Below the pieces are notes generated by a model. The model did no database searches and was not told the DNA's origin. It saw nothing but the letters and a program-made list of their open reading frames with translations. Both the position numbers and the translations under genes were made by a program. Shown here one piece after another: positions 2,095-25,093 of a stretch of 31,381 bases of DNA; position 1 is the stretch's first letter; the number at the start of each line of letters is the position of its first letter. The stretch comes from a virus (taxonomy: Duplodnaviria > Caudoviricetes), in the IMG/VR virus record IMGVR_UViG_3300005836_000061, positions 1 through 31,381 of that record, one strand, 5' to 3'.

Positions 2095-3288
2095 TTGGCA
2101 AGACGAGCTAGAATTCATTCTAGAGATATACAGCCACTAATTGCGGCACCAAAGGGACTATTTGCTGCTGCCCGAGTTCAGCGATTGGATTTTCCATTAA
2201 CAATCAATACAACAAATATTGACGAATTAGGAAACAGATTGCACGTTGGTACAACATCAGATATTCCACAGGTTACAGTAACACTAGAAGCCTTTGACGT
2301 AAGCCACAACACGTTTGCTTATTTGACAGGATATACACCGGGAACATTCCCAGTATCAGGTGCTTCTATTACTGAATTGAAGAACATTGACGTTATCGGT
2401 TCCATTAGAGAGAATTGTGGAGACACAGTTGCTTCTGCTATCTATGTTAAGAGAGGTATCGTTACAGCAATGGCCGCATCATTCGGTGTGCAGGCTAACT
2501 CTACTGTAACATATACTGTTAACTCTAACAGTAAGAAAGCATTCAGACAGCCAGTTTACTATGATTCATTTACAGCCTCAGGTACTCAGTCAACATTCTC
2601 ACTGTCACAAACACCAACTTATCTAACTAGAACTTCTGGTTATGTAATTGATGCTTATGTAACAGCGGGCTCATGCACAACTAACTATCTAACAGAAGGA
2701 ACAGACTTTACCGTTAATGGTACAACTGTCACACTTAGTGGCATTACAGTTGCTACAGGCGACTCTTTCTGGTTTACATATACAAACCCAGCATCTTCAA
2801 CATTCCAAGCTCTAGATACTGCTGCACCAGCAGCTATTCAGGGCAAGTATGTTCCAGTATCAATATCTGTTAACAGTATTCCGAGAGTACAAAGCGCCAC
2901 AATCAACGCTTCGTTCGGTTCTGAGCAGATACTTGAAATGGGTGGATTAGGCAAGCCAGTTGGATACGAGATTAACGTACCTGACGTAACAGGTGATATA
3001 TCTGTTCTAAAGACAGACAATGACCTATTAGCTATACTTGAAGGAGTTTCAAATACTACAGTTGAAAACGATATTGAGTATGCACTAACTTCACTGCCAC
3101 TAAAGGTGCAGTTGAAAGACCCAAGCAATCCTGCCAGAGTTGTTCTTACGTACTACGTACCAAGCATTACAGTTACAGCGCAGGGAGACGCATCAACAGT
3201 TAATACATCTATTGCAGAAACATTCTCATGGAAGTCAACAACAGGAGAACTATTCGTTGCTTCTGGTGCTGGACCAGCGGGATGGTAA
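2095..3288 (+). CDS. Major tail tube protein with two tube-like halves and a central Ig-like insertion
   Basis: TTG start with SD AAGGAGG at 2080-2086. Thr/Ser/Val-rich, lies before the chaperone and tape measure genes, and is followed by a terminator. The RVQ...ELG/EMG...P-x-VT motif occurs twice. Confidence 0.8.
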   Translation: MARRARIHSRDIQPLIAAPKGLFAAARVQRLDFPLTINTTNIDELGNRLHVGTTSDIPQVTVTLEAFDVSHNTFAYLTGYTPGTFPVSGASITELKNIDVIGSIRENCGDTVASAIYVKRGIVTAMAASFGVQANSTVTYTVNSNSKKAFRQPVYYDSFTASGTQSTFSLSQTPTYLTRTSGYVIDAYVTAGSCTTNYLTEGTDFTVNGTTVTLSGITVATGDSFWFTYTNPASSTFQALDTAAPAAIQGKYVPVSISVNSIPRVQSATINASFGSEQILEMGGLGKPVGYEINVPDVTGDISVLKTDNDLLAILEGVSNTTVENDIEYALTSLPLKVQLKDPSNPARVVLTYYVPSITVTAQGDASTVNTSIAETFSWKSTTGELFVASGAGPAGW

Positions 3289-3327
3289 ATCGAAAGATGT
3301 TATAGGAGCTACTTAGTGTAGCAATAA

Positions 3328-3367
3328 GGGAAGAGTGCTATCCACTGCGCTCTTCCCTGCTTTTTTT
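3328..3367 (+). terminator. Rho-independent terminator after the major tail gene
   Basis: Stem GGGAAGAGTGC / GCGCTCTTCCC (one G-U pair), then TGC and a run of 7 T. Confidence 0.8.
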
Positions 3368-3390
3368 ATTGGAAATTAAAGGAGAAGGAA

Positions 3391-4104
3391 ATGGGAAGTC
3401 TAAGTGATTTATTCAAGTACAAGAAACAAATTGATATAATTGACCCTGATACGGGAGAGGTTGTACAGAAGCCTTGGGTACGAGTTTTAGGTGATGATGA
3501 TTTAAAAGAAGCATATCGTTGGTCCCGCATAGCATCTTCAGAAAAACGGGCAAAATTAAGGGATATAGGAAGTGTAGAATACAGAGATGAGATAGCACAA
3601 TTAGATGGTGTTCCAAAGGAAAATCTAATTGCCATCATTCTTGCTGCCCGTGAGCAAGAATTTTCTAATGAGGCAAATATAACAGTAGTTAGAAAAGACC
3701 TTCCTAAATTAGAGGATATAACTGAGCGCCCTGATGCTCCAAGTTTAGAGGACCAAGAAAAATTAGATAGACTTAGTGCAGAGATAGATGCTGAATATAC
3801 TACTGAAATACAAGAATATATTAATACTAAATTAGAAGAAGTTGGTAATATTCTTTTAGATAAGCCTGATGATGAAGTAATAAGTCTAGCAAAAAGTGAC
3901 TTAGCAAATATTCAGGCACTTGATGCTTTTGTTTCAGAATTAAATGACCAAAAAGGCTATAGAGGAACATATGACGATAAAGAATGTAGAAATCATTCCT
4001 TTGATTCAGTAGAAGAATTCAAAAGTTCTTCAAGTCTTTTAAAGTCTCAAATTATATCTGCATATTTAGAATTAGAAATGGGGTCAGATAAAGTAAAAAA
4101 ATAG
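3391..4104 (+). CDS. Tail assembly chaperone (gpG-like)
   Basis: Acidic helical protein between the tube and tape measure genes. It ends GTA AAA AAA TAG on a slippery heptamer. Confidence 0.8.
   Translation: MGSLSDLFKYKKQIDIIDPDTGEVVQKPWVRVLGDDDLKEAYRWSRIASSEKRAKLRDIGSVEYRDEIAQLDGVPKENLIAIILAAREQEFSNEANITVVRKDLPKLEDITERPDAPSLEDQEKLDRLSAEIDAEYTTEIQEYINTKLEEVGNILLDKPDDEVISLAKSDLANIQALDAFVSELNDQKGYRGTYDDKECRNHSFDSVEEFKSSSSLLKSQIISAYLELEMGSDKVKK
4095..4101 (+). other. Programmed -1 ribosomal frameshift site A AAA AAA
   Basis: The heptamer sits just before the TAG at 4102. The -1 frame (ATA GCA GAG GAA GGT TCT TGG GGA GTG...) is open into ORF 4125..4397. Confidence 0.85.
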
Positions 4105-4397
4105 CAGAGGAAGGTTCTTGGGGAGTGGCACTAGCGTTACATAAAACAATAGGTGTTCCTCTCGCTGAAGATATAGAAACAGCTACAGACCTTCCACACA
4201 CTTTATCATTTGCTATCTTATACAGAGATAGAATAGATTCATTTAATGAACTGCCTAAAGATAAAAGACCACCCCGGAATCTCTGGGATAAGCCGTATGA
4301 ATTAGAAAAGTTTTTTGACGCTATTTGGGGAGATAAAGAATCAGGAAAGGATACAGGACAAGACTTCTATGATATAGATGAGTCTGATGTGGAGTGA
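4101..4397 (+). CDS. C-terminal part of the frameshifted tail assembly chaperone (gpGT-like)
   Basis: The -1 frame is open from the slippery site to the TGA at 4397, immediately before the tape measure gene. This is the canonical lambda G/GT arrangement. Confidence 0.75.
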   Translation: MAEEGSWGVALALHKTIGVPLAEDIETATDLPHTLSFAILYRDRIDSFNELPKDKRPPRNLWDKPYELEKFFDAIWGDKESGKDTGQDFYDIDESDVE

Positions 4398-4404
4398 TAA
4401 ATAA

Positions 4405-7400
4405 TTGGTTGACTATCGAGTAACGTTTAAGGGTGACTTAGGCAATCTAGCACAATTTGATACTGCTATTAGAAATAGTGTACAACAAAGTGCTAGAGCA
4501 ATCGAACAAGCAAACAAGTCTTTGCTTGCACAAGTAGGGAATATCTCGGGTATCTTCAATCCACAGACTAGCGGTGCTGGACTATTCGTTAGTAAATTAA
4601 ATACACAAATTGATGGTGTAAATAGAACTCTTATTCATTCTGGCGAGATAGTAAGAAGAGTAACAGCAGATTATGAACTAGCTGTTAATTCCGCAGGAAG
4701 ATTATCAGTTAAACCTATATTTGCAGATGTATATAAGTCTCCGTATACAAAAATTATTGGAGACTTAGACAAGATTGAAGCTGCTCAGGCAAAACAAGGT
4801 CCAATAGAGCAAAAAATACTTGCTGATAGAGAGGCATCGTTAGCAAGAACTATTCCCTTAGAAGAAAGAGTATTAGCACTACAAGAGTTACAAGGTGCAC
4901 AGTTAGCAAAAAGAAAATCTGCTATTACTACTACTGGTATATATACTACACCCGTACAAAACCAACTAAATAAAGCTATAAAAGAACAAGCACTAATACC
5001 TCCAACTGATACAGCAGCACTAGCCGCAGGTAGCAAAAATATTGCTAACTTACGTTATGAACTTGCCCAGATAAAGGCAAGTGGTGCAGCAGCATTAGCA
5101 CCTATAGATTCAGAAATACTAAAAATTAATGCTGAAATAGATGCTTTAGGAATAAAAATAGCAAGGATAGGTACAGCACAAGAAATTAGAGCGGCTAGAC
5201 TTCGAAGTACAAGTCCTGCCTATGACCAGCAATTAACTACTAGTGGTCTACCAAATTCTAAATTACAAGCAAAAATACTTGAAGATACCCAGCAAACTCT
5301 TCAAAAAATTATACCTCTACAAGAAAAAATTGTAGGATTATACCAGAAAGAATCTGAAATAAATGCCAGAAGAGCGGCACAAGTAAAAGAAACTCAGGCT
5401 AAAACTGCTCCTTTAGAATCTCAGATAAGCCAGCTTCAAACAGCACGGACTGCTATAGACCCAACTGATACAGCAGCACTAAGAACAAATCAGCGTCAGA
5501 TAAATAGTCTCACAAAACAACTAGGTGTATTAAATAAAGAGGGTGCTGCGGCTTTAAAACCCTTTGATGCGGAATTAAAAGTAGTAGATAAAGATATAGC
5601 ACGTACAACACTAGCAGCAGAGAGATTAAATACTGCATTAGCGAAAAGAACTTATTCTACTGCAAGCAAGATTACACCACCTGCTGGTCCTGTATATGGT
5701 CCTCCTGTACCGGGAGAACTTACACAAGCATATGAAAGCACGCCTCCAATACAGGCGCAATTAGCAAATGTTTCTAAAACTTCACCAGAACTTCTTAAAA
5801 GACTTCAGAGAGAGGGCTTAGGCGGGGGATACCAAGCTGGTACTGAGGAATTTAAAAAAGCTTTAGCTCAACAAGAGGCAGCAGTTACACACTATACTGA
5901 AAATATTAGAACAGGTACTAAATTAGTACGGGGTTCATGGATTGATAATGTAGGAGTAGGAGCAACAGGAGTTGCAAAAGAGTTCTCAATAGAGTTGGAT
6001 AAGCAGGGTAAAGTTATCGGACGATGGGGAGGACAACTTGCAGGAGCGAGCCAATTCCTACGTCAGACAGTTAGAGACTTTACAAAAGTTATTGAATGGA
6101 CAGTTGCGACCACAGCAGTTTTCGGTACCTTGGCAACAGTTGTAGGACAACTAAAGACAATCAATGAATTAAATAGCTCACTCGCTCACCTTGCTATCAC
6201 TGCTCAAACTTCAGTTGGTGATACTGCAAAATTATTCTCTGCTTTAGGACAAGTTGCTGTGCAAACAGCTACACCATTAAATGAATTAGTGAAGGTAGCC
6301 GATGACATCGCACTAGCTACAAAGCAAGCAGGAGATTCTACACAGGAGTGGCAGGGTAAAATTATAGATTTAACACGAGCAGTAGGTATTTTTACGAACC
6401 TAGCCGGTGTTGATACAGTACAAGCTGCTGACCAGTTAAGTGCTGCATTTAAGCAGTTAGGAATTGCTCCAAGTGAACTAGTTGGAGTCCTAAGTAAAGT
6501 TACTGCTGTGGCAGGGGGACAATCAACAGCAATTGCTGATATCGTTAAGGGTTTGAGCAGTGTATCCGAGGCGGCAAAGGCCGCTGGTCTTTCATTAGAC
6601 GAACAGATATCATCAATTCAGGTTCTATCACAGGTTACAAATAAATCATCTGATGAGATTGCTACCTCATTCAAGAACCTATTTGGCAGTGTTAGTTCAG
6701 TAGGCTCTGAGAAGATACTTAAAGAGTTTGGTATCAATATTCGTGATGCCCAAGGCGGAATGAGAGGCTTCCTAGACATATATCGAGATGTTAAACAGGC
6801 ACTAGACTCAGGAGTAATTCCCCAGAATAGATTATCTGATGTTTTACGAGGCATTGCTGGTGGTCCAAGACGGGCACCAGATGCGGCAGCCTTGCTAGAG
6901 AATATTGGTAGAATTGATGCAACAGTAGGCACAAGTATAAATGCTACAAATGAAGCACTAATTGCCAATGCAAAAATATTAGATACCAATACTGCTAAGA
7001 TACAACAGTTTAAAAACTCTGTAGATATTGTAGTGTTTGAGAAATTTGGTAAGGTTGTTCAAGATTTAATTAGTACTCTAACAGATTTTGGTAATGTTTT
7101 ATTAGGAATTTTGAAGGCTCCTAATGCAGCGTTCTATTCCCTAATTGTTAATTTAGGCGCTATACTACTTCTAATGAAGGGCTTTGGTGCAGTTATTAGA
7201 ACATTGGGAATTGATAGTCTATCTGCGAGCGTCCTAAAATTATCTACGTCTTTTAAAACTCTTGCTATTTCATCATCATCAGCGGCGACAGCACTTCCTG
7301 CTGCAACTGGCCCCGGAACAGTTATACCACTAGGGCCGGGAGCTGGACCCGGAGGTATTAGAGGGCTGCTTAGTAAATTTGGAGGAAACAAGGCTCTAAT

Positions 7401-9951
7401 TGCAGGAGCATTAACAGCAGGAGCGGTTGGTGCTGCAAGTATTGCACAAGGTGGAATAAATGCTGGCACAGTAGGAACTGTGACACAGATGGCAGGAGCA
7501 CTCGCTTTGACTTTAGGAGTATCAGCACCTTTAGGAGTAGCTTTATTAGGGCTAGGAACAGTACTACAACTAGTCTCTAATGATTCTACTGCTGTTGCTG
7601 AATCCCAGAAAGATTTACGCTCTTCATTACTCACAGGTATAGATACTCTTAAAGCAGCGCAGTATGAAACAAATAACTTAGTAAAGGCGCAAGAAGATGC
7701 TGAAAAAGTAGTAACCAGATTACAAGAAAAAGGGAAATTAACATCTTCTGAACAGGCACAATTAACTACCGCCACTAAAGATTATGTTAATGCAGCCATT
7801 ACATTAATAGATGCAAATTCTAAAGTATCTGATTCTTTTAATGATGTTCTAGATAAAATTCAGAAATTAAACGGAGTAGATTATTCACACTTTAAGGATA
7901 TTGCAGCGGGATTAAATCCTGATAGTCCAGAGATTCAGAAATTACGACAGCAATTAATAGAAGATTTACTTAAAAGTACTGGACAATCTATTTATTCAGG
8001 AAAGACACTTACTCCAAGTAGTACATTTGTACCCTTTACCGATAACGGTACATCTACCCTTGCAAGAAGTAAGGGAGGTTTATACGGAAACTATGATATC
8101 TCTAGACTTTCAACAAATCCGGGGGAACTAAAGCAACTATTTAACGGAGATGGTACCCCCAATTATACTATCCCTGAAAATAAAGTTTCATTAACTTATT
8201 TACAGGAAGCATTAACTCAGGTATCTACAGACCTTAATAAATATGGTGTATCTCAGGACCAGTTTGATATGCTGACTAAGGCTATTAATAATTTAGCAGA
8301 AACATCTTCAACCTCTGCACAAAATGCTGCAATTGTACAACAAACTAATGCCCAAGTTCAAGCTAATAGTATCCTAGGAATATTTAATGCAGACCAAACA
8401 AAAAATGCTAATACAGATGTTACATTGCTAGGTAAAATACAGAAAGCACAAGAAGGCGTGCCTACTACATATAGCCCAACTGGTTCCGCCGTTACAACCC
8501 CAGAAGTTGATGCACTTCAAAAGCAGTTTGTTGAGATAAAAAAAGCCGCAGAACAGGGATTAACAGTTCCAAATGCAACTCTTAAATCTATAGCTACAAA
8601 TATACTTTCTGTTACTAAAGGTGGGGCAGGATTTGCATCAAAATTAGAAGAGATAGGTTCTAAAGGTAAAGAGGCACTTGATTTAGGCATATATAGCTAC
8701 TTAAAAAATGCAGGAGTATCACAAGAACAACTTAATTCTTACGCTGCCCAATATAAACTTAATCTACAAGCAATTGCTGATATTATTCCTGAAATATCTC
8801 AGGCATTCGAAGATGCAAGAAAAGCAGCACAGACATCTTTTGCTGACCGTTCATTGCAACTATTAATACAGAAAAACAGCGGGCAATTTAAAGGAAATGA
8901 ATCAGGGTATAAAGAATTAACAGATATAAATAATGAGGCATTAAAATCTAATAATAAATTAATTGATAGTGTAGAAAAAATGTCTGGAACAGCCTTAGTT
9001 GAATTTAATAATGCTCTAACAGGTATTATTGGCCTTCAAGGAGATTATATTACCGGGAACGAGGATTGGCTGAATCAAAGTGGAGAACTAGAAAAGCATG
9101 TTACTTCTCTTACATCTAAGCTTATATCTAATGCAGAGGCAGCGGGTGTAAATGCCTCTGGATTAGCACAAATAAGAATAGAAGCAGAAAAATTAGTAGC
9201 TATTTCTGCACTTATAGATTCTTATCATGAAATAATTATTCATGTTAAAACAGTATATGAGAATATAGGTAATAATCCTGCGACAGCTTATCTATCTGCT
9301 GCGGCAGCACAAGTCCTTACTGATTCATCTAATAAGGCAAAATCACAGCTATCTGATGCAGAAAAACAATTAAAAGCAGTACAAAAAATTATTAATCAAA
9401 TAAATGCAAGTGGGAAGGGAAGTAATATTGGTGGCAGTAGTAAAAGCAGTGGCAGTAGTGGTAAAACAGGTCCAAATGTTTCTACATTGGATATCCCTGA
9501 TGAGGTTGCAAGTGCTACAAATAGGTCTGCACTTTTACAAGAGGCTATCAAGAGAGCAAGAGCTTTGCAGTCCCAAATACCCGGTGCAACAAAAGATGCT
9601 AAGAATGATGTTGTTGAATTACTAAAGGGAACTCAGAGAATACTAGAGGTACGTGGAGTAAAGGATGATTATCTGAGAAAAGCCCTAGAAGAATTAGCAG
9701 CAATAGAAAAGAAGAGATTAGATTTTGAAACTAAGGCAGATACTATTAGACGTATCCGTGTTGGTGCAGGAGATTTCTCTGCTATTGCTAATGTTCCAGT
9801 TAATTCACAGACCGGAGTTAGTCTTGGCGGGCCACAAGGTCCAGTTAATATAACTCTAAATCTTAATGGTACTATTTTAACGCCAGCACAACTGGCGCAG
9901 TTTGGAGATTTAATTGCTGCTAGTTTGAAACGGCAGATAGCGAATGGATAA
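4405..9951 (+). CDS. Tape measure protein (1848 aa)
   Basis: Longest ORF, after the G/GT pair, Ala/Gln/Leu-rich and helical. It has a TP901-type core (AADQLSAAFKQ...VLSKVTAVAG...AKAAGLSLDEQIS...SSDEIATSFKNLF) and hydrophobic Gly/Ala segments at about 7130-7580. Confidence 0.93.
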   Translation: MVDYRVTFKGDLGNLAQFDTAIRNSVQQSARAIEQANKSLLAQVGNISGIFNPQTSGAGLFVSKLNTQIDGVNRTLIHSGEIVRRVTADYELAVNSAGRLSVKPIFADVYKSPYTKIIGDLDKIEAAQAKQGPIEQKILADREASLARTIPLEERVLALQELQGAQLAKRKSAITTTGIYTTPVQNQLNKAIKEQALIPPTDTAALAAGSKNIANLRYELAQIKASGAAALAPIDSEILKINAEIDALGIKIARIGTAQEIRAARLRSTSPAYDQQLTTSGLPNSKLQAKILEDTQQTLQKIIPLQEKIVGLYQKESEINARRAAQVKETQAKTAPLESQISQLQTARTAIDPTDTAALRTNQRQINSLTKQLGVLNKEGAAALKPFDAELKVVDKDIARTTLAAERLNTALAKRTYSTASKITPPAGPVYGPPVPGELTQAYESTPPIQAQLANVSKTSPELLKRLQREGLGGGYQAGTEEFKKALAQQEAAVTHYTENIRTGTKLVRGSWIDNVGVGATGVAKEFSIELDKQGKVIGRWGGQLAGASQFLRQTVRDFTKVIEWTVATTAVFGTLATVVGQLKTINELNSSLAHLAITAQTSVGDTAKLFSALGQVAVQTATPLNELVKVADDIALATKQAGDSTQEWQGKIIDLTRAVGIFTNLAGVDTVQAADQLSAAFKQLGIAPSELVGVLSKVTAVAGGQSTAIADIVKGLSSVSEAAKAAGLSLDEQISSIQVLSQVTNKSSDEIATSFKNLFGSVSSVGSEKILKEFGINIRDAQGGMRGFLDIYRDVKQALDSGVIPQNRLSDVLRGIAGGPRRAPDAAALLENIGRIDATVGTSINATNEALIANAKILDTNTAKIQQFKNSVDIVVFEKFGKVVQDLISTLTDFGNVLLGILKAPNAAFYSLIVNLGAILLLMKGFGAVIRTLGIDSLSASVLKLSTSFKTLAISSSSAATALPAATGPGTVIPLGPGAGPGGIRGLLSKFGGNKALIAGALTAGAVGAASIAQGGINAGTVGTVTQMAGALALTLGVSAPLGVALLGLGTVLQLVSNDSTAVAESQKDLRSSLLTGIDTLKAAQYETNNLVKAQEDAEKVVTRLQEKGKLTSSEQAQLTTATKDYVNAAITLIDANSKVSDSFNDVLDKIQKLNGVDYSHFKDIAAGLNPDSPEIQKLRQQLIEDLLKSTGQSIYSGKTLTPSSTFVPFTDNGTSTLARSKGGLYGNYDISRLSTNPGELKQLFNGDGTPNYTIPENKVSLTYLQEALTQVSTDLNKYGVSQDQFDMLTKAINNLAETSSTSAQNAAIVQQTNAQVQANSILGIFNADQTKNANTDVTLLGKIQKAQEGVPTTYSPTGSAVTTPEVDALQKQFVEIKKAAEQGLTVPNATLKSIATNILSVTKGGAGFASKLEEIGSKGKEALDLGIYSYLKNAGVSQEQLNSYAAQYKLNLQAIADIIPEISQAFEDARKAAQTSFADRSLQLLIQKNSGQFKGNESGYKELTDINNEALKSNNKLIDSVEKMSGTALVEFNNALTGIIGLQGDYITGNEDWLNQSGELEKHVTSLTSKLISNAEAAGVNASGLAQIRIEAEKLVAISALIDSYHEIIIHVKTVYENIGNNPATAYLSAAAAQVLTDSSNKAKSQLSDAEKQLKAVQKIINQINASGKGSNIGGSSKSSGSSGKTGPNVSTLDIPDEVASATNRSALLQEAIKRARALQSQIPGATKDAKNDVVELLKGTQRILEVRGVKDDYLRKALEELAAIEKKRLDFETKADTIRRIRVGAGDFSAIANVPVNSQTGVSLGGPQGPVNITLNLNGTILTPAQLAQFGDLIAASLKRQIANG
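4813..5730 (+). repeat. About 153-aa (459-bp) tandem duplication in the tape measure N-terminus
   Basis: The exact 21-mer CCAACTGATACAGCAGCACTA occurs at 5002 and 5461. KIL...IPL(E/Q)E...PTDTAAL...GAAAL(A/K)P(I/F)D(S/A)E repeats at the same 459-bp offset. Confidence 0.85.
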
Positions 9952-9963
9952 GGAGGAAATTAA

Positions 9964-10713
9964 ATGTCTCTAGGACCAACACAGCAGTATCTAGCTAGAT
10001 ATAACGGATACCGATTACCGGGTTATGTTCAAGAAGAGTCACTGGATTCTTCTGCAAATATTGCTACGCATCAGGCTCCGTATGCTGATGGTTCCTTATC
10101 TGAGTATACAGGATTAGAGAATAAGCAGGTATCTTTGACACTTAAAGTATGGGAGCAAGATTATCTATCCTGTAAATTAGCAGTTGGACAGGCTGCAACG
10201 ATATTAAGAAGTAAGAGAAATGGATTTGCACCACTCTACTTGCAGTACTCAGATAGATATTACGAAGCTATGACTACTTCAATCAAAGAAGGAAAAGTAG
10301 CAGGAGAATCTATTAGAACTCTAGCATATCAAGTAGAGTTAGCATGTAAGCCTTGGTTAACAAGTGTTAGTGGTTATACGCTTACTGGAACAACAGTAGA
10401 TACAGATTCAGTATCTCGTACTATTGATAATGGTGGCTGGACTCCAACGACAATCACAGTCACAGGCACGAATGTCACCATCTCAGGGTATACATCAACA
10501 GGAGATTTCGCTGGCTTTATCAGTATTTCGGGAGCAGTAACAAATATGATTATAGATACAGAAAATTACGAATCAACAATAGGGGGCATCAATGCTAATG
10601 ATAGGATGCTGTGGGCTGACTACCAGATGTATGTTGGTCCCGGTAAAACTACTTTTGTTAGTACAGGTGCATCAAGTATGAGTATAAATTATTCGGATAG
10701 GTGGTATCTATAA
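9964..10713 (+). CDS. Distal tail protein (Dit), bare copy
   Basis: Directly after the tape measure gene with SD AAGGAGG. Siphovirus Dit-like pattern: ...ACKPW...NGGWTPTTITVTG...MIIDTE...VGPGKT...YSDRWYL. Confidence 0.75.
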   Translation: MSLGPTQQYLARYNGYRLPGYVQEESLDSSANIATHQAPYADGSLSEYTGLENKQVSLTLKVWEQDYLSCKLAVGQAATILRSKRNGFAPLYLQYSDRYYEAMTTSIKEGKVAGESIRTLAYQVELACKPWLTSVSGYTLTGTTVDTDSVSRTIDNGGWTPTTITVTGTNVTISGYTSTGDFAGFISISGAVTNMIIDTENYESTIGGINANDRMLWADYQMYVGPGKTTFVSTGASSMSINYSDRWYL

Positions 10714-11714: not shown

Positions 11715-11720
11715 ATTACT

Positions 11721-11755
11721 TGCTATAATACAATATAGTTAGGATAATACAATAT
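11721..11755 (+). promoter_or_regulatory. Extended -10 promoter (TGCTATAAT) overlapped by a 12-bp direct repeat
   Basis: Perfect TGnTATAAT at 11721-11729; ATAATACAATAT at 11725 and 11744. Lies in the intergenic gap before the 1420-aa gene. Confidence 0.55.
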
Positions 11756-11770
11756 TAAGAAGGTGAAGTA

Positions 11771-16033: not shown

Positions 16034-16042
16034 GGGTGAATA

Positions 16043-19000
16043 ATGACTTATCAAGTTCGAATAACAGACCCGGACGGCAGCAATCCAGTTATTTTAGAAA
16101 AAGCAGATAACGTATCTTATAATAAAGTAGTAAATACAACTACTGAAAGTTTAAGTTTTGAATTACCAACATCTGATGGTAAATCTTCTCTGGTTACATA
16201 TGCTAATTTGTGGGAGTTTTGGGATGTATTTGCTAATGAAAGACTAAATAGAGGACCAATACATTCTATCGAAGATACGGATAGTGGTACTCTTAGAATT
16301 TCAGGGCCGGGTAGGTCACAGTTTTTGGCAGACCACATACAAGAGAATTTAATATCTTTCTATAGCCGCCCATCTGACCTTATAAGTGGTCTTAGATACG
16401 AAAACGTAGCTGCAAATCCTGCTGCTAAGACCTACGTATGGGACGCACAAACATCAACTAAAACTATGTTCTTTCCTACTGATGTCACTGTAAATACAGA
16501 AAAATATAATCAATACTATGGACTAAGTAAACAGACTAAAGATAATGCTATTGATAATAATATTGGTTATATTAAGCCGGGAGCCGATAAACCTGTAAAT
16601 ACATATACAACAACAGATTCTTACTGGTCGGGCACAGATGTAGTAGATAGTTTAATTATAGATTTAGGCTCAACATTCCTTATTAACCATGCTTCTATTG
16701 TGTTTGCATGGTGGGGCGGTAATCAAAGAGTTTATGACAGAGGTTATAAGTTTAGATTTTACCATTCAACTGATACAGGAGATTTTGAAACAGTAAATCC
16801 ATCAAACTGGGTTCTTATGTATGAAGATACAGAAGGTAGGAATACAGGTTCCCCCGGAAGTGGTTATAATATTGTATATGGAACAGGAACAAATGCTGGT
16901 AGAACCGTTTATACAGGAACGCAGCCCACTAGTATTCGATACTTTAGAGTAGTTATAACGGGTACTACAGCATGGTATGGCTCTATTTATGATGCTAGCC
17001 CACCAGAAGATAAGTGGGACTTCCAGTGCAATCCTGATACAACCCAAACAAATATTGGACCTTCCGGTGCTTTACAAGTTCCTCCTATGCAGGGTAAAAA
17101 AATCAATGACCGCACACTAGAACCACCAAATGATTGCCATGCATCTATTGTAGAATTTCTAGCATATACAGAGCTTGTGGAAGTCAATCAGATAACTAAA
17201 TTAATTAAACAAAGAATTAAAAATGATAATAAACAAATAAAATATTTTCATACTTGCTCAGCAGGAGATACAATTACTTCCGGGAGTTACAGAAAATTTG
17301 AGCCGGGAGGATTTTTTGAACAAGTAGAATTATCTTATACAGGAGCAAGCTCTAGCTATACAAAGTTCTTTGATAGTGATTGTACTAATTGTTATTCATC
17401 ATTTAATTTTGGAATAGTAGATGATTATAATTCTCTTATATATGCATCTAGCAGTTCATCTGGCTCAAACATTAATTTAACTATACCAAGAAACGCAAGA
17501 AGTTTAACTATGAAGGGGTCAACTACGGCTGTTATTAATAATGTTGATGTATGGCCAACGGTACTAGACCCACTGTCTTGGGGAGGGCAGTATAGTTATA
17601 CTGAAACAGCAGGAGATTACCTATATCTTAACTTTAGGGGTCGTTCTTTCCAGTGGTGGGGAACGGTTCCTGCCGGTAAAACAGCAGGAGTAGCACTGGT
17701 AAAGTTACGCTCACGTAACGACGCTACAGGTGATTGGAATGCATGGACTACCCTAGAATCAGGACTCAATATTCCTGTAGATATATCCTCAGAGATTATT
17801 TATGAAATAGATTATGATAGCGGTATATTAGCAGATGATACCAGTTATCAAGTATATATTGAAAATTTAAATGGTGGCTATATATCTCTAGATAGTTTTG
17901 GGGGCTGGTGGGAAGGGTCTATATTAGACCTTAATGATGATAGTGATAGAATCTTTATTGCCCACCCCGATAACTGGAAGCAAATATATGATAATAGATT
18001 TAGTAATGGTACTATGGGTAAAACAAACTTAAATAGAGGAAGAGGTTCCCTAGGTTTTACTGGTGATAGATTACAGATTTATTCTGCTAAAGGAAGAAAT
18101 CATGGGAAGATTTCTATCTCAATGTCATCTAGTCCTACTGGCACACTTAATCAGTGGGACCCTACAGGAGAACAAAGAGTATTCATTCCGGGAGGGGACC
18201 CATCTAGTGGGACCTTAACAATTGATTTAGATACTGGAAAGAAGGGCAATGAAGCACCTAATGTATTGATATTTGATACTGACTCTCTAACTGGGTGGAA
18301 ATATGGCCCTAGTGGTACCCCGGTAGATTCATTACGCTGGAAAGGCTATCAGGTAAGTTTTGAATTATTTTATTATGAAAAATATTATACAGATGCATTA
18401 CAAGAGGATACGGACCAGTTTGTAGCGCGGTGTAGTGATTGTAATCCTCCAACAACAGGCACAGATTATATCAATAAATACATTTATTTAGATGGTATGT
18501 CACTGCATGAAGTTGCTAGAATGAGTGGTAGTTGGAAACTTCAAACCAATATTGCTATAATAGCATCAATAGCAGAAGCTTTACAATTAGAGTGGGACAT
18601 TGGTGAGCAGGGGTTAACAGTTTTACCGCGTATTGGTACTGATACAGATATTATTTTAAAGGAAGGTATCAATACGGTTATCTCATCCCAAGTGGTAAAG
18701 GATGGCCAGAAGATGGCAACACAGTTGTATAGCTCTGGGGCAGATATTGACGGATTACCTTTATTCTCTATTGTTGAAGATAGAAAGAATAGAGAAGTAT
18801 TAGGACGTACTGTGCAGCGGTTACAGGATTATAGGGATTTAGCGGATTATTTTACTCTTATTGGAGTTTCTAGAGCAGAGTTAGTACGAAGACGAGAACC
18901 AGAATATCGTATTGATGTTACGCATGTTGGGTATAAATATGGATTAAATGCAGGGGATAGTTTTATAGTTAAAAAGAATGCCCAAGACCCTATAAGGGCT

Positions 19001-19087
19001 AGAATAAATTCGCTGATTATAAATCAATCAAAATCTTCTGGTATAACGTATAGTTTGGAGTGTGTTAAATGGCCTCCGATAGTTTAA
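16043..19087 (+). CDS. Baseplate hub/Tal-like protein with inserted carbohydrate-binding-like domains
   Basis: Follows Dit. N-terminal hub pattern (SLSFELP...LWEFWD...RGPI) and C-terminal hub pattern (RIGTDT...ILKEGIN...ATQLYSSG...LNAGDSFIV). Discoidin/F5-8C-like insert (IIDLG...RYFRVVIT...SIVEF) and two F(R/T)G-x-x-(F/L)Q beta modules. Confidence 0.7.
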   Translation: MTYQVRITDPDGSNPVILEKADNVSYNKVVNTTTESLSFELPTSDGKSSLVTYANLWEFWDVFANERLNRGPIHSIEDTDSGTLRISGPGRSQFLADHIQENLISFYSRPSDLISGLRYENVAANPAAKTYVWDAQTSTKTMFFPTDVTVNTEKYNQYYGLSKQTKDNAIDNNIGYIKPGADKPVNTYTTTDSYWSGTDVVDSLIIDLGSTFLINHASIVFAWWGGNQRVYDRGYKFRFYHSTDTGDFETVNPSNWVLMYEDTEGRNTGSPGSGYNIVYGTGTNAGRTVYTGTQPTSIRYFRVVITGTTAWYGSIYDASPPEDKWDFQCNPDTTQTNIGPSGALQVPPMQGKKINDRTLEPPNDCHASIVEFLAYTELVEVNQITKLIKQRIKNDNKQIKYFHTCSAGDTITSGSYRKFEPGGFFEQVELSYTGASSSYTKFFDSDCTNCYSSFNFGIVDDYNSLIYASSSSSGSNINLTIPRNARSLTMKGSTTAVINNVDVWPTVLDPLSWGGQYSYTETAGDYLYLNFRGRSFQWWGTVPAGKTAGVALVKLRSRNDATGDWNAWTTLESGLNIPVDISSEIIYEIDYDSGILADDTSYQVYIENLNGGYISLDSFGGWWEGSILDLNDDSDRIFIAHPDNWKQIYDNRFSNGTMGKTNLNRGRGSLGFTGDRLQIYSAKGRNHGKISISMSSSPTGTLNQWDPTGEQRVFIPGGDPSSGTLTIDLDTGKKGNEAPNVLIFDTDSLTGWKYGPSGTPVDSLRWKGYQVSFELFYYEKYYTDALQEDTDQFVARCSDCNPPTTGTDYINKYIYLDGMSLHEVARMSGSWKLQTNIAIIASIAEALQLEWDIGEQGLTVLPRIGTDTDIILKEGINTVISSQVVKDGQKMATQLYSSGADIDGLPLFSIVEDRKNREVLGRTVQRLQDYRDLADYFTLIGVSRAELVRRREPEYRIDVTHVGYKYGLNAGDSFIVKKNAQDPIRARINSLIINQSKSSGITYSLECVKWPPIV

Positions 19088-21015
19088 GACAGGTAGGACA
19101 ATCATTAGGTAAGACTGGGCGTGATGCGGACCGGGCACTTAAAAAAGTATTCCCTATAAAACCACGCTTAGAGCGCGTTAGGGACGTGTTTGATTCTACA
19201 GTTCAATTTGAAATGGAATTTGTAAAAGAAGATAACGATAAGCGGGTGTTGCTAGACCTTTTTTTCAATCTTCCCCCACCGCTTAGGGGGTGTAAAATAG
19301 GGTGTATCTACACAAGATGCGAAGAGTTCGATTTTGAAGCGGGTGGAAATCATTATGTTACTTTAGAGCATCCCTATAATGCGGGCTCAGTATCAGTTTA
19401 TTTGAATGGAGATAAACTCCCAGACACAGACGTTGTAGAATCGTCCCCTGAAAGTGGGGAAGTATTTTATCAGACCAGCAGCAGCGGTCCAGATATTGTA
19501 GTATTTTGTTACATATATGATACTTGTGGATTACCCGGACTATGCCCACAGTTTAAACCTAGCTTTACAGGGGGCACATTGTTATTTAGTGATAAGTTTG
19601 ATAGACCAGAAGGTATAGAAACTTGGGGAGGTTTAGGATACTACTACTCAGGTGGGTATCCAACAACACCTATCTCTGTGCCAATAGGTACAATAGCACC
19701 TAATACTCTGGCACTAGATGCTTCAAGATACTATACATTTGAAGATATAAGGGCTACTGGCATAGTTTCAGAGATGATTTTAGCTTTTGATGCAAGAGAA
19801 TGGGTTAACATCCCTGACACATTTGCACAACATGCATCAACACTAGTTCTTTTTATGAACACTACACAAGAAACATCGCCAGTTACTACCCCTAGCTTAA
19901 CTATTAAAGTTGATGGCAGTGTTACATTAATTAGACATATACGGTATTTAACTACTCCTTATGTTTTTAATCTTGGTGATACTTGGCAGATTTTATCTCT
20001 TTCTCAGAGATTATATACTACACTAGATTTAAGACAAGAACTATTTATACGATTTTATTTTGATGGTGACATATACAGAGTTAAGATATGGCCACAAGAC
20101 CAAGATGAGCCTGTAGATTGGCTAGAGTTTGATATGGCTTTACCTTCACCAACGGCATTAAGAGATATTATAAATGCGTCAATTTTTCCTCCACAATCTT
20201 TTACAACCTCCAATATCCAATGGATTAAGCCCGATATTTGGGGGGGCCAAATGTCAACATTTGGGGGCGCTGACGGATTTCCAGTTCCGTTAAAGTCTAA
20301 TGGTGTTCTACAAGCGATAGAACATTGGGCGGGCCAAGTTTCAGGCGTGTATGGAAGCTGGGAGTACAGTGGTTTTAATCAGTCCGCTACGTGGTCTAGA
20401 CATGTCGCGCATAGTTATGCTGGATTTTTCTGGGATGATGACGTTGAGTCAGATACTATCGTAAATGGAACAACAAATGGACGAATGAGAGTGGGATATC
20501 CTACCTGTGCAGTAACCGCAGGTTGGAGTTCCTTTGACCCGTATGGTCCAGTTGAGCCTATATTTGTGGACCAACTTATTCCTGCGTGGGATACTTATTA
20601 TGGTAAAACTTTAGATATAAAAATCACCGGGGAAGTCCAATGGACAAGATGGAGAGAGACTTTAGCTACTCCCCCTCTAACGATTTTACTTCAAACATTT
20701 AATTATGGCCTTAATGGACCCCCCGGAACAGCGGGAGACTATTTTAGTGGGACAACCCAAGTATCTATATTAGCTAATTTTGAGGAATGGTATCCATTTG
20801 AACTGGTTATTCCAGCCACAGCCGATGGCTGGATACAGTGGGGGTGTCGCTTCCAAGAATCTCCTAAAACTATTGCGGAAGGATTAGCTGGATATACGGG
20901 TAGTTTCTTCTTTACATCTACATCAACTGCATCTATTAATTTTAGGAAAGTATGGACAGAGGCGGTTACTAAGCCCATTGGAGGGGCAAAACCTTTCTGC
21001 CCAGAGGAAGTTTAA
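19069..21015 (+). CDS. Tail-tip protein: ~150-aa adaptor module plus beta-rich putative receptor-binding domains
   Basis: Overlaps the Tal stop. The N-terminal ~150 aa are homologous to the next ORF. The FSDKFDR and RVKIWP...EPVDW motifs are typical of phage tail beta-sandwich domains. Confidence 0.6.
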   Translation: MASDSLRQVGQSLGKTGRDADRALKKVFPIKPRLERVRDVFDSTVQFEMEFVKEDNDKRVLLDLFFNLPPPLRGCKIGCIYTRCEEFDFEAGGNHYVTLEHPYNAGSVSVYLNGDKLPDTDVVESSPESGEVFYQTSSSGPDIVVFCYIYDTCGLPGLCPQFKPSFTGGTLLFSDKFDRPEGIETWGGLGYYYSGGYPTTPISVPIGTIAPNTLALDASRYYTFEDIRATGIVSEMILAFDAREWVNIPDTFAQHASTLVLFMNTTQETSPVTTPSLTIKVDGSVTLIRHIRYLTTPYVFNLGDTWQILSLSQRLYTTLDLRQELFIRFYFDGDIYRVKIWPQDQDEPVDWLEFDMALPSPTALRDIINASIFPPQSFTTSNIQWIKPDIWGGQMSTFGGADGFPVPLKSNGVLQAIEHWAGQVSGVYGSWEYSGFNQSATWSRHVAHSYAGFFWDDDVESDTIVNGTTNGRMRVGYPTCAVTAGWSSFDPYGPVEPIFVDQLIPAWDTYYGKTLDIKITGEVQWTRWRETLATPPLTILLQTFNYGLNGPPGTAGDYFSGTTQVSILANFEEWYPFELVIPATADGWIQWGCRFQESPKTIAEGLAGYTGSFFFTSTSTASINFRKVWTEAVTKPIGGAKPFCPEEV

Positions 21016-21453
21016 ATGGATAATGTTAATCAATTAGGAAAAAATCTAGGGAAGAATAAGAAGACTGCTGATAGGGCAGTTAAAAAGTCCGGACCAATAG
21101 TACCTCAAATTGAGCGTGTAAGAGATACGATGGATTTTGAGATACCCTTTGAAATGGAGTTTCATGTACAAAAAGTAGGACCAATCCTGCTCTCTCTTAC
21201 ATTTTATCCACCACCAAAGACAGGGTGCTGCGCAGATTGTTTTTGTTCTGTTTGCGAATTCTTTAGTAATGGAATTACAGAAACAGAATATCAAGTTACA
21301 TATGGGTATGTTCCCGGAACTGTTCATGTGTTTAAAAATAATATAGAGATAGTAGAATTTGTTGAAACTGATGCATCCCAAGGATTAGTCACAGTTTGGG
21401 CGCATAATGATGATGATATTACTATATGTTACGTATATAAGATTTGTTTATAG
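21016..21453 (+). CDS. Bare paralogue of the adaptor module of 19069..21015
   Basis: Shared LGK...ADRA(L/V)KK..P..P..ERVRD..D....FEMEF...LL.L.F..PPP..GC...C....CE.F.....Y..G.V.V..N.......CY.Y..C. Confidence 0.7.
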   Translation: MDNVNQLGKNLGKNKKTADRAVKKSGPIVPQIERVRDTMDFEIPFEMEFHVQKVGPILLSLTFYPPPKTGCCADCFCSVCEFFSNGITETEYQVTYGYVPGTVHVFKNNIEIVEFVETDASQGLVTVWAHNDDDITICYVYKICL

Positions 21454-21462
21454 GAGGCATTT

Positions 21463-21687
21463 ATGGCAACACCACCCTCATTCCCGGAAAACTGCAGGGT
21501 TTTTATTGATGGCATTGATTGCACATACTGGCTATTTGGTAAAGAAACAATAACACCTACAGAATTAGACCATCGGTGGCACGATGTTGATATATCTTTG
21601 TATGTTAAAGGACCCGGATTGCATAAGTTACAAATAACTGCTGAGTCTGGCGTAGGTAGAGTAGACGCAAGAGTGGCGCTTTCATAA
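21463..21687 (+). CDS. Small beta-rich tail-tip protein
   Basis: SD AGGAGG. The pattern RVFIDG...DVDISLYV..PGLHKLQIT...GRVDA resembles the C-terminal half-sandwich of phage tail-tip proteins. Confidence 0.55.
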   Translation: MATPPSFPENCRVFIDGIDCTYWLFGKETITPTELDHRWHDVDISLYVKGPGLHKLQITAESGVGRVDARVALS

Positions 21688-21698
21688 GGAGAAGGAAT

Positions 21699-21956
21699 AT
21701 GTTATTGCAAGAACGCAGTGCAGCTAGACGCGCAAAATGGGAAATATTCAAAACAGATAATTTAATTGAAGTTATTAAAAAAGCAGCGGAACTTGGTTGG
21801 GCAGATAAGAAAGTACAAGTGCGGGGCATTCAAACTGGCTCTGTGACATGGGAATATAGTATCGAACCCTTTGAAAAAGACTGCAATTGTCCCAGTATTC
21901 TAAAATATGCCGATTATAAAAGGGTAGAAGAAACTTTACCTTTGGTTAGAGAGTAG
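21699..21956 (+). CDS. Small hypothetical protein, paralogue A (CxC motif)
   Basis: SD AAGGAGAAGGA; KA.ELGW.DKKVQVR...YSIEPFEKDCNCPSILKY. Confidence 0.7.
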   Translation: MLLQERSAARRAKWEIFKTDNLIEVIKKAAELGWADKKVQVRGIQTGSVTWEYSIEPFEKDCNCPSILKYADYKRVEETLPLVRE

Positions 21957-21962
21957 AGTATA

Positions 21963-22160
21963 ATGGGGTATGAATATTTTACCTCCACTAACTTTGAATT
22001 AACAACACAAAAAGCAAAAGAAATGGGATGGAAGGATAGGAAGGTACAGGTAAGGGTAGAATTTGAGGGGCAGGTAGCACATTATTATATTGAGCCCTTT
22101 GAAAGAGACTGTTCTTGTCCAAATATTCTTAACTATATTAAAATATTTGGAGACAATTGA
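21963..22160 (+). CDS. Small hypothetical protein, paralogue B (CxC motif)
   Basis: KA.EMGW.DRKVQVR...YYIEPFERDCSCPNILNY, clearly homologous to the preceding ORF. Confidence 0.7.
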   Translation: MGYEYFTSTNFELTTQKAKEMGWKDRKVQVRVEFEGQVAHYYIEPFERDCSCPNILNYIKIFGDN

Positions 22161-24133: not shown

Positions 24134-24142
24134 GGAGTAGAC

Positions 24143-24799: not shown

Positions 24800-24808
24800 G
24801 GAGATAAA

Positions 24809-25012
24809 ATGACAGACCCAATTCCTACTCTAGAAGAGGGGGAAATAGACCCGGATTCAATTGTTGGGGGTACCGAAGTCCCAGAAGATGATGAACCCTT
24901 TGAGGGAATAGAAGATATGGATGATGAAAGTGCAGACGCAGGAGATGTGGACCACCTTGCGGGTGCTAATGATGATGAAAATCCATCTAGTGACCTCCCA
25001 AGTGGAGAGTAA
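24809..25012 (+). CDS. Highly acidic 67-aa peptide
   Basis: Good SD (AAGGAGA); 25 D/E residues and no K/R. Confidence 0.6.
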   Translation: MTDPIPTLEEGEIDPDSIVGGTEVPEDDEPFEGIEDMDDESADAGDVDHLAGANDDENPSSDLPSGE

Positions 25013-25015
25013 AAC

Positions 25016-25045: not shown

Positions 25046-25093
25046 AACAGTAGTCCTGATAACAGGAAAAATAAATAAGAAGGGAGGTAGAAA

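What the first reader, a model, noticed from the sequence alone, without database searches (positions are those of the whole stretch)
2095..22160. Tail built from paired copies at several levels: candidate pseudo-hexameric 3+3 heteromeric tail tip
Seen: four duplications in one tail module. They are (i) two tube-like halves in the tail tube protein, (ii) two Dit copies (9964..10713 bare; ~15326..16033 behind a giant fibre), (iii) two adaptor modules (19069.. decorated; 21016..21453 bare) and (iv) two CxC mini-proteins (21699, 21963). Known: siphovirus tube and Dit rings are normally homohexamers, and T5 pb6 is a trimer of duplicated domains. Inference: this phage extends 3-fold pseudo-symmetry into the baseplate by alternating a bare and a cargo-bearing paralogue in each ring. 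That would let very large adhesins be displayed on half the subunits. I do not know of a described virion with this whole arrangement.
Basis: partly seen in the sequence, partly recalled or inferred. Interest (0 to 1): 0.85.

Follow-up and report, generated by a model that had tools for sequence, protein, structure and literature searches.

The report
Fibre-bearing second Dit, modular tip anchors
An uncultured family of long-tailed phages encodes a second copy of the ring protein that caps the tail tube, fused to the end of a long variable arm, plus one to three copies of a small anchor module behind the tip hub; the second copy likely shares one ring with the plain copy (a 3+3 ring of this kind is already solved in phage Nocturne116) and the anchors likely bundle as a three-chain plug, so the four 'pairs' do not follow one shared 3+3 rule.

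Summary
All four duplications are real: Dit pair 52%, adaptor modules 36%, CxC pair 51% identical; tube halves match at P 9e-5. They are not one design. Among 21 distinct relatives:
- CxC gene: single in 16 of 16 scoreable.
- Adaptor module: one (2), two (7) or three (10) copies among 19 scoreable.
- Bare Dit plus fibre-fused Dit: 12 of 14; two fragments show one Dit.

A two-domain tube needs no second Dit (T5, PMC10038345). An alternating 3+3 Dit ring is solved in Nocturne116 (PMC13595954). DitB keeps 27 core residues shared with DitA and has none of its own, and the tape-measure end has the same length in one- and two-Dit phages. This weakly favours one mixed ring (~55%; strict 3+3 ~30%) over stacked rings (~35%). 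The adaptors more likely fill a three-chain plug under Tal (~50%).

I found no description of the arm-on-Dit fusion or the 1/2/3-copy anchor. This scan noted the Dit pair before on two other genomes. Verdict: new variant of a known kind.

The parts
1486..1944 (+). 152-aa protein just before the tube gene; tail terminator by position (inferred)
   Evidence: conserved in place at 29-42% identity in all 8 of the 9 first loci that reach it; no family hit
2095..3288 (+). Tail tube protein: two tube-like halves (about residues 5-152 and 247-392) separated by an Ig-like insert (about 153-240); predicted trimeric, pseudo-hexameric ring
   Evidence: hhalign P 9.1e-5 against shuffles; Atlas feature match 0.93 to a cluster in which 25% of members carry PF18906 Phage_tube_2; 257 homologues
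3391..4397 (+). Two tail-assembly-chaperone-like ORFs (3391..4104, 4125..4397); the first ends in an A-AAA-AAA run before its stop (possible frameshift)
   Evidence: position, conservation, sequence; function inferred
4405..9951 (+). Tape measure protein; last 150 residues conserved without a large indel in one-Dit and two-Dit phages
   Evidence: PF10145 1e-19, PHROG TMP
9964..10713 (+). DitA: bare distal tail protein (ring domain about 6-132, beta-rich C-domain 134-249)
   Evidence: phrog_202 Dit E 1e-6; lies between TMP and Tal; ring-domain identity 61% among 13 paired phages
10701..11714 (+). 337-aa protein of unknown function (phrog_2448); an exchangeable slot, replaced by unrelated ORFs in several relatives
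11771..15319 (+). Arm of the giant protein: about 30 or more 14-residue Gln-rich repeats ([FY]GQAQA-x-I type) interleaved with cargo domains, including a LamG lectin-like domain (about residues 928-1065)
   Evidence: autocorrelation peaks at 14/28/42; PF13385 E 8e-8, above cut-off
15320..16033 (+). DitB: second Dit, forming the C-terminus of the giant protein
   Evidence: 52% to DitA; the relative L015 DitB hits phrog_33 Dit at 1e-4; C-terminal in 19 of 19 long homologues
16043..19087 (+). Tal / baseplate hub with inserted discoidin-like and other domains; ends right after the last hub strand, with no C-terminal fibre
   Evidence: C-terminal pieces of 3 of 6 relatives hit PF06605 (best 8e-6, below cut-off), the window's own piece did not; N-terminus PF18994 0.09; F5/8-C 0.002
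19069..21015 (+). AdA: N-terminal anchor module (residues 1-80: helix plus extended strands), Ig-like domain (about 84-153), then about 495 aa of cargo
21016..21453 (+). AdB: anchor module plus Ig-like domain, no cargo; covarying cysteine pairs C72-C77 and C80-C138 (likely disulfides)
   Evidence: model pLDDT 82: helix 2-25, unpaired 26-70, beta-sandwich 71-142; fold matches Z <= 6.9; covariation
21463..21687 (+). 74-aa beta-rich protein, single-copy in every relative where seen; fused to the anchor module in L029, so likely its partner or cap
21699..21956 (+). CxC mini-protein 1, the orthologue of the relatives' single copy
21963..22160 (+). CxC mini-protein 2, an extra copy seen only in this genome
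   Evidence: 16 of 16 scoreable relatives have one copy

Best explanation
This is the tail module of an uncultured siphophage family in which a two-domain tube protein likely forms three-subunit rings, a plain Dit and a fibre-fused second Dit likely share one distal ring that would display up to about three long lectin-bearing arms, and one to three proteins with the same N-terminal anchor likely bundle as a three-chain plug or central fibre under the Tal trimer; the second CxC gene is a private duplication.

Mechanism, step by step:
(1) Tube: trimers of the duplicated domain give a pseudo-six-fold tube. Inferred from profile homology and the T5/P74-26 precedent, about 85%.
(2) Dit: the ring lies between two three-fold partners, so its six seats fall into two classes. 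DitA, conserved on both of its inferred ring faces, would hold the demanding seats. DitB, a relaxed copy that keeps the core residues, would enter the others and project its Gln-repeat arm from its N-terminus. One mixed ring about 55% (strict 3+3 about 30%, variable occupancy about 25%); stacked rings about 35%.
(3) Anchor: Tal stops at the hub, and the next gene(s) begin with an amphipathic heptad helix that would seal the Tal cone as an exogenous three-helix plug. One gene would give a homotrimer, two a 2:1 heterotrimer and three a 1:1:1 heterotrimer, each chain carrying its own exchangeable cargo (about 50%).
(4) CxC: a single conserved accessory, possibly a disulfide partner of the anchor cysteines (speculative); its duplication is incidental (about 90%).

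Shown: the duplications, their copy numbers and the conservation patterns. Inferred: every oligomeric state.
For: Copy numbers in 21 distinct Tal-centred relatives (28 loci, 7 duplicates removed): two Dits in 12 of 14 scoreable; adaptor 1/2/3 copies in 2/7/10 of 19; CxC single in 16 of 16.

DitB is C-terminal in 19 of 19 long homologues. It is cut to, or replaced after, the ring domain in L015, L023 and L036/37, so the ring domain is the selected part.

Ring-domain identity is A-A 61%, B-B 40% and A-B 43% in the same phage versus 42% in other phages, while the C-domains are about equal (53% versus 50%). Positions conserved at 80% or more: 27 shared, 16 A-only, 0 B-only, 0 reciprocal (15 A and 33 B rows). 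The A-only residues cluster at the hairpin tip (H36, G43, S44) and at the strand-to-helix loop (W63, E64, D66). From the tube-fold topology I infer these are opposite faces of the ring; PMC13595954 implies the long loop normally points distally. A ring stacked above or below would put one of these conserved faces against a variable DitB face.

The TMP end is 146-148 residues in one-Dit phages and 146-153 in the others, with no large indel. Precedents: Nocturne116 DTP1/DTP2 3+3 ring; SPP1 gp17.1/gp17.1* mixed 3:1.

Anchor: N-terminal in 150 of the 150 listed hits (323 in all), lengths 69-1426 aa. Hydrophobic positions 4, 7, 11, 18, 21 and 22 with conserved Gly8. Residues 26-70 are unpaired in the monomer model. 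Ad1, Ad2 and Ad3 form three supported orthologue groups. In phage Mysterious the central fibre protein gp30 supplies an exogenous three-helix plug to the hub gp29.
Against: No structure of any ring was modelled, and the top/bottom assignment of the Dit loops is inferred.

The absence of B-specific residues argues against a strict, obligate alternation as much as against stacking; in Nocturne116 the two partners are strongly diverged. The lone Dit of L020 lacks most 'A-only' residues, which weakens their reading as tube or Tal contacts. That paper says several DTPs usually form separate rings (T5, DT57C), and the gene order DitA-DitB-Tal is collinear with stacking.

The two one-Dit contigs are fragments (19% and 40% complete). 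A relocated fibre-Dit cannot be excluded: G001 ends inside a Gln-repeat ORF. The B set (33 rows) is larger and more diverse than the A set (15), although the matched 13-pair test agrees.

The adaptor copy numbers reflect only a few evolutionary events. Stacked or separate homotrimers would explain them too.
Confidence: 0.45

Rival explanations
1. Stacked rings: a DitA homohexamer and a DitB homohexamer sit in series between tube and Tal, as p140 and pb9 do in T5, and the DitB ring carries six arms (or three paired arms).
For: T5: pb6 trimer, p140 trimer, pb9 hexamer, pb3 trimer; T4 gp54/gp48 are cited there as stacked rings (PMC10038345). PMC13595954 says several DTPs usually form two rings. 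Gene order is collinear with stacking. There is no reciprocal A/B specialisation. The lone Dit of L020 groups with the window's DitB (95/88), so a B-type Dit may close a ring alone.
Against: DitB has no conserved residue of its own although it would have a unique job. DitA is conserved on both inferred faces. The TMP end has the same length in one- and two-Dit phages (weak, since the TMP need not contact the tube specifically).
Confidence: 0.35
2. One reading: every level (tube, Dit, adaptor, CxC) is a 3+3 alternation of a bare and a cargo-bearing paralogue.
For: All four duplications coexist in this window. A 3+3 Dit ring exists in Nocturne116.
Against: CxC is single in 16 of 16 relatives. 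The adaptor has three copies in 10 and one in 2 of 19. Both adaptors carry cargo in L014 and L017, and all three do in L024. Neither CxC copy bears cargo.
Confidence: 0.04
3. Each anchor-bearing protein forms its own homotrimer, either stacked in series under Tal or docked side by side as a branched receptor-binding complex of the CBA120 tailspike type.
For: The Ig-like domain's best fold matches are the CBA120 TSP4 N-terminal region (Z 6.9) and phage fibre and collar domains. Ad1, Ad2 and Ad3 are old and separately conserved. Homotrimeric fibres are the rule (established knowledge).
Against: The Ig-like domain is absent from the three-copy clade, so it is not the conserved anchor. Ad1 is usually a bare 75-88 aa module (9 of 10), which fits a space-filling chain better than an independent fibre. 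No relative among 19 exceeds three copies.
Confidence: 0.4
4. DitB does not join the tube at all; its Dit-like domain docks on the outside or acts as a folding module of the arm.
For: DitB is relaxed at both loops. G001 has a complete 2635-aa Gln-repeat protein with no Dit domain, so arms can exist without it.
Against: DitB keeps 27 residues shared with DitA, many of them polar (Q23, E25, E47, K54, K71, R82, D97). The ring domain is what survives truncation.
Confidence: 0.08

Closest known systems
Lactococcus phage Nocturne116 DTP1/DTP2 hetero-hexamer (PMC13595954; passages and part of the reference list read)
   Same: Two distal tail proteins encoded in the tail-tip module; in that virion three of each alternate in one ring, one bare and one with an extra domain, above a hub trimer.
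   Different: There the two DTPs are small and strongly diverged, the tube is a true hexamer, and no fibres were seen. Here the copies are 52% identical, both usually keep the C-domain, the second carries an N-terminal arm of about 250-3160 aa, and the tube is predicted to be trimeric. No homology between the two systems was shown.
Phage T5 / DT57C tail tip (PMC10038345, passages read) and P74-26 tube (PMC10034513, passages read)
   Same: Tube protein built from two fused tube domains forming trimeric, pseudo-hexameric rings; an extra tube-fold ring near the tip (p140) around which the fibre-anchoring collar sits.
   Different: In T5 the extra ring is a tube-protein duplicate stacked above a homohexameric Dit, and the fibres attach through a separate p132 collar. 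Here the duplicate is Dit itself, fused to the arm, and the Ig domain sits between the two tube halves rather than at the C-terminus.
Evolved Dits of Gram-positive siphophages (PMC7291167; OE33PA, 10.64898/2026.05.20.726473; passages read)
   Same: Dit used as a platform for carbohydrate-binding modules.
   Different: Evolved Dits are a single gene with modules inserted in the galectin domain, on a hexameric ring. Here a separate paralogue carries an N-terminal repeat arm beside a plain Dit.
Mycobacteriophage Mysterious central fibre protein gp30 (PMC13252515, preprint; passages read)
   Same: The hub lacks its own plug, and a separate central fibre protein (gp30, numbered right after hub gp29) inserts a three-helix bundle into it; the anchor helix here has the same position and pattern.
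   Different: gp30 is a homotrimer from one gene. Here one to three paralogous genes share the anchor. No sequence or fold match to gp30 was shown.
SPP1 gp17.1/gp17.1* (PMC7666168, passages read)
   Same: A plain and a decorated version of one tube-fold protein coexist in one tail at a set ratio (3:1), and the decoration is dispensable.
   Different: Made by frameshift from one gene and located in the tube, not in the Dit ring.

Membership tests
Pseudo-hexameric two-domain tail tube protein (T5 pb6, P74-26) | Two homologous domains in one chain | tested here: met
   hhalign P 9.1e-5, 100 columns, score 32.9 versus shuffled maximum 19.7
Pseudo-hexameric two-domain tail tube protein (T5 pb6, P74-26) | Each half has the tube beta-sandwich fold | tested here: inconclusive
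   model failed (pLDDT 31); Atlas feature match 0.93 to a cluster with 25% PF18906; no PDB sequence hit
Pseudo-hexameric two-domain tail tube protein (T5 pb6, P74-26) | Trimeric rings in the virion | not testable with these tools
   needs cryo-EM or a ring model
Siphophage Dit | Gene between TMP and Tal | tested here: met
   both copies, in the window and in 12 of 14 scoreable relatives
Siphophage Dit | Homology to Dit families | tested here: met
   DitA phrog_202 E 1e-6; L015 DitB phrog_33 E 1e-4; the window's own DitB gave no PHROG hit but is 52% identical to DitA
Siphophage Dit | Homohexameric ring | not testable with these tools
   no six-copy single-protein job was available; not modelled
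Nocturne116-type 3+3 hetero-hexameric Dit ring | Two Dit genes, conserved together | tested here: met
   12 of 14
Nocturne116-type 3+3 hetero-hexameric Dit ring | Partners specialised for alternation (each with its own conserved features) | tested here: inconclusive
   0 B-only and 0 reciprocal positions versus 16 A-only: no sign of reciprocal specialisation, but alternation is not excluded
Nocturne116-type 3+3 hetero-hexameric Dit ring | Three of each, alternating, in the virion | not testable with these tools
   needs cryo-EM or stoichiometry
Tal / baseplate hub (PF06605, PF18994) | Hub domains at both ends | tested here: inconclusive
   3 of 6 relatives' C-parts hit PF06605 at 8e-6 to 4e-4, below the curated cut-off; N-part PF18994 at 0.09; position supports it
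Exogenous-plug central fibre (Mysterious gp30 type) | Gene right after a hub that has no C-terminal extension, starting with an amphipathic helix | tested here: met
   Tal ends at the hub; helix 2-25 with heptad pattern
Exogenous-plug central fibre (Mysterious gp30 type) | Three-helix bundle inserted in the hub lumen | not tested
   no Tal-plus-anchor model was run
   1/2/3 copies in 2/7/10 of 19; both decorated in 2 of 7 two-copy relatives
   one copy in 16 of 16

The most novel reading that the evidence does not exclude
A siphophage tip with two heteromeric, pseudo-symmetric display platforms. The first is a 3+3 Dit ring clamped between a trimeric tube and a trimeric Tal, in which the second Dit anchors three arms of up to about 3,000 residues built on a new 14-residue Gln repeat. 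The second is a central plug or fibre assembled from up to three different gene products (1:1:1), each carrying a different adhesin, so that one tip presents three distinct receptor-binding chains on its axis.
Probability: 0.15. Interest if true: 0.8.

Novelty: new variant of a known kind. Interest (0 to 1): 0.5.

Why it matters
In the adhesion devices covered by the papers I read, host-binding modules are inserted into a single Dit, appended to Tal, or hung on separate collars and upper-baseplate proteins. A Dit paralogue used as the C-terminal anchor of a giant exchangeable arm is another route. It is conserved across a widespread uncultured family (257 tube homologues, 323 anchor clusters; longest contigs about 105-120 kb). 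If the anchor really builds 2:1 and 1:1:1 heterotrimers, it would show how a three-fold tip breaks symmetry to carry several receptor-binding proteins at once, and it would give a small natural plug-in module. The family also offers a natural series (one or two Dits; one, two or three anchors) for asking when duplicated ring subunits alternate, mix or stack. The general ideas (pseudo-hexameric tube, 3+3 Dit ring, exogenous plug) each have a solved precedent, which caps the novelty.

Tried and rejected
- Single-sequence fold of the tube protein: pLDDT 31, unusable. With the second fold job spent on AdB, no Dit or tube model was obtained.
- Complex prediction of the three anchor paralogues of L016 (Ad1, Ad2, Ad3): verdict 'no answer', score 0.07, partner fold uncertain. 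It is not used for or against binding.
- No A3B3, A6 or B6 ring was modelled: one job only, and a pass between 52%-identical paralogues would not separate the models.
- PDB sequence searches with the tube, Dit and Tal profiles: nothing significant.
- Fold search of AdB: no Foldseek hit at E <= 0.001 in PDB or BFVD. VIA Z <= 6.9 covers only residues 67-145, so the anchor itself (1-66) was barely tested. Atlas hits for AdB were under 0.9.
- Cultured phages: no Dit match. One distant tube match, GX15bay (29%), has a single 129-aa ORF between TMP and a Tal-like gene; I read it as a ring-only Dit by position, but it hit no family.
- Search for more relatives of the one-Dit phage G001 returned only itself.
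- The tube tree could not root the one-Dit phages; they lie unresolved among two-Dit phages.
- Considered and rejected: an internal start releasing a free DitB (no ribosome site); recent gene conversion between the Dits (A-B identity is the same within and between phages); the 245-aa ORF of L020 as a hidden Dit (it is endonuclease VII); the PF07953 hit on the giant protein as a toxin (below cut-off, overlaps the LamG domain).
- Host not identified. The one genome-collection hit (L072) is a 16-kb contig in a bin labelled Flavobacteriaceae; it was not examined and is not taken as the host.
- Literature searches that found no description of an arm-fused second Dit or of a multi-gene anchor. The library holds only open-licence PMC papers and bioRxiv, and no supplements were read. 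For the Jabs paper (PMC13419713) only an abstract-length text was held.

Full report
**Setting.** The window is a whole 31,381-base virus record. It holds the tail, lysis and part of the replication module of a tailed phage. Tube homologues number 257, and the longest related contigs are about 105-120 kb. No cultured phage has a matching Dit; the host is unknown.

**1. Observation.** The Dit pair (52% over 244 aa), the adaptor pair (36% over 150 aa) and the CxC pair (51% over 57 aa) exceed all 500 shuffles. The tube halves are weak as single sequences (27 of 500 shuffles as high). As profiles they align in register: P 0.004 with 10 sequences, and P 9.1e-5, score 32.9 against a shuffled maximum of 19.7, with 121 sequences. 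An Ig-like insert lies between them. The giant ORF carries a 14-residue Gln-rich repeat and a LamG domain. It runs into DitB with no internal ribosome site.

**2. Relatives.** Tal-centred scans gave 28 loci. Seven were duplicates by Tal identity (L019, L026, L027, L028, L030, L035 and one of L036/L037), leaving 21.
- Dit: 14 loci show enough of the TMP-to-Tal interval. Twelve have bare DitA plus Gln-repeat-fused DitB; two (L020, L022) have one Dit. In L020 an endonuclease VII gene sits before it. In L022 the Gln-repeat genes lie downstream of Tal, one complete 2635-aa protein has no Dit domain, and the contig ends inside the next one. Both are fragments, so a relocated DitB is not excluded. 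The other 7 loci start too late to score.
- Adaptor: of 19 scoreable, 7 have two copies, 10 have three and 2 have one. In L029 the single copy is fused to the 74-aa protein. Both copies carry cargo in L014 and L017; the first of three is bare in 9 of 10.
- CxC: one copy in 16 of 16 loci where the region is bounded; none seen in L022; four loci are truncated.

These counts are not independent. The three-copy phages share one old triplication (three orthologue groups at 100/99, 97/90 and 99/93), and the two-copy proteins, together with the lone copies of L020 and L022, form another group (97/89).

**3. The Dit pair.** DitB is C-terminal in all 19 long homologues. In L015, L023 and L036/37 only its ring domain remains. 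In 13 paired phages, ring-domain identity is 61% among A, 40% among B, and 43% versus 42% between A and B of the same versus other phages; the C-domains evolve alike. There are 27 shared conserved positions, 16 A-only and none B-only or reciprocal. DitB is thus a relaxed copy whose constraints are a subset of DitA's.

DitA's private residues lie at the long hairpin tip and at the loop before the helix, which I infer to be the distal and proximal faces. A subunit conserved on both faces is most simply sandwiched directly between tube and Tal, which leaves DitB in the same ring. The TMP end, which threads the Dit and Tal lumen in OE33PA, has the same length in one- and two-Dit phages. An extra ring of about 40 A would correspond to about 27 helical residues (established geometry, recalled).

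Against this: the lone L020 Dit lacks most A-only residues and groups with the window's DitB; no reciprocal specialisation supports strict alternation; and stacked paralogous rings are described as the usual case. My odds: one mixed ring 55% (strict 3+3 30%, variable 25%), stacked 35%, other 10%.

**4. The adaptor.** The AdB model (48 sequences, pLDDT 82) has a helix at 2-25, an unpaired stretch at 26-70 and a beta-sandwich at 71-142. The sandwich resembles phage fibre-attachment and collar domains only modestly (Z <= 6.9; Foldseek E >= 0.03) and is missing in the three-copy clade. The conserved unit is therefore the first 80 residues or so. It is N-terminal in all 150 listed hits of 323, on proteins of 69-1426 aa. 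It has a heptad helix and two alternating-hydrophobic strands, and cysteine pairs 72-77 and 80-138 covary.

Tal ends at the hub and AdA overlaps its stop. In Mysterious the central fibre protein gp30 supplies a three-helix plug to a hub that lacks one. A three-seat bundle filled by one, two or three gene products explains the copy numbers; serial or side-by-side homotrimers do too. The label 'adaptor' is reasonable; a 3+3 ring is not supported.

**5. CxC.** The gene is conserved as a single copy next to the 74-aa gene in both clades. The two window copies are no closer to each other than to the relatives' copies. The extra copy is old or was acquired, but it is not shared by any relative seen. 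Whether either is a virion protein is unknown.

**6. What is known.**
- Two-domain trimeric tubes: T5 and P74-26 (passages). In T5 the tube continues as a p140 trimer, a pb9 homohexamer and a pb3 trimer, so a trimeric tube does not need a heteromeric Dit. HFTV1 has a pseudo-hexameric trimer above its hub (passages).
- An alternating ring of three DTP1 and three DTP2 is solved in Nocturne116. Its authors note that several DTPs usually form two rings (passages and part of the references).
- Plain and decorated subunits coexist in the SPP1 tube. Evolved Dits carry inserted modules.

My searches found no Dit paralogue fused behind a long arm and no multi-gene central anchor; supplements were not read. 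Two earlier notes of this scan describe the same Dit pair on other genomes; none was found for the adaptor.

**7. Verdict.** The tail is a new variant of known siphophage design: a probable pseudo-hexameric tube, an arm-bearing second Dit that may well alternate in one ring, and a one-to-three-copy anchor that more likely forms a heteromeric three-chain plug. The unified four-level 3+3 model is rejected as a family rule. Interest 0.5.

Noticed in passing
window 11771-15319; L042 4911-5768, 7019-14926, 14905-19773: A 14-residue Gln-rich repeat with no family match forms the arm and separates cargo domains. In G001 several Gln-repeat proteins exist, at least two complete ones without any Dit, so the repeat may itself mediate assembly. 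Fold and oligomeric state are unknown.
   Followed up: partly
L029 3784-4224; window 21463-21687: The 74-aa protein is fused to the anchor module in L029 and sits between Tal and AdA in L034; it is a likely cap or partner of the anchor bundle.
   Followed up: partly
L020 9998-14386: Tal is split into two ORFs (1037 aa and 420 aa), the second ending in the hub C-terminal part; an endonuclease VII gene lies between TMP and Dit (8464-9201).
   Followed up: partly
window 4090-4104: The first tail-chaperone-like ORF ends in an A-AAA-AAA run just before its stop, a possible -1 frameshift into the next ORF.
   Followed up: no
window 22157-23341: A GT4 glycosyltransferase (phrog_2170) follows the CxC gene closely in all 16 bounded relatives and precedes the lysis genes; it may modify tail proteins or host glycans.
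   Followed up: no
window 9964 and 11771: DitA has a strong ribosome site and an ATG; the giant DitB protein has a weaker site and a GTG start, which hints at more DitA than DitB (not measured).
   Followed up: no
window 10701-11714: The slot between DitA and the giant gene holds phrog_2448 in some relatives and unrelated ORFs (none to three) in others; in G001 the gene lies downstream with the Gln-repeat genes.
   Followed up: partly
L020 14402-14872: The anchor module is followed by a collagen-like Gly-Pro-X repeat, a trimer-forming cargo that would fit a three-chain bundle in that phage; the contig ends there.
   Followed up: no
L010 (GX15bay, MK557849.1) 19920-21137, 28608-28997, 32897-33325: The gene annotated 'epimerase' is a 29%-identical homologue of this tube protein. 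It is followed by a TMP, one 129-aa ORF, a Tal-like gene and a 142-aa gene that looks helical at its start.
   Followed up: partly
window 23351-25450: Glucosaminidase-like protein (PF01832, below cut-off), a 218-aa Cys/His protein with no family hit, and a 118-aa membrane protein: probable lysis cassette.
   Followed up: no
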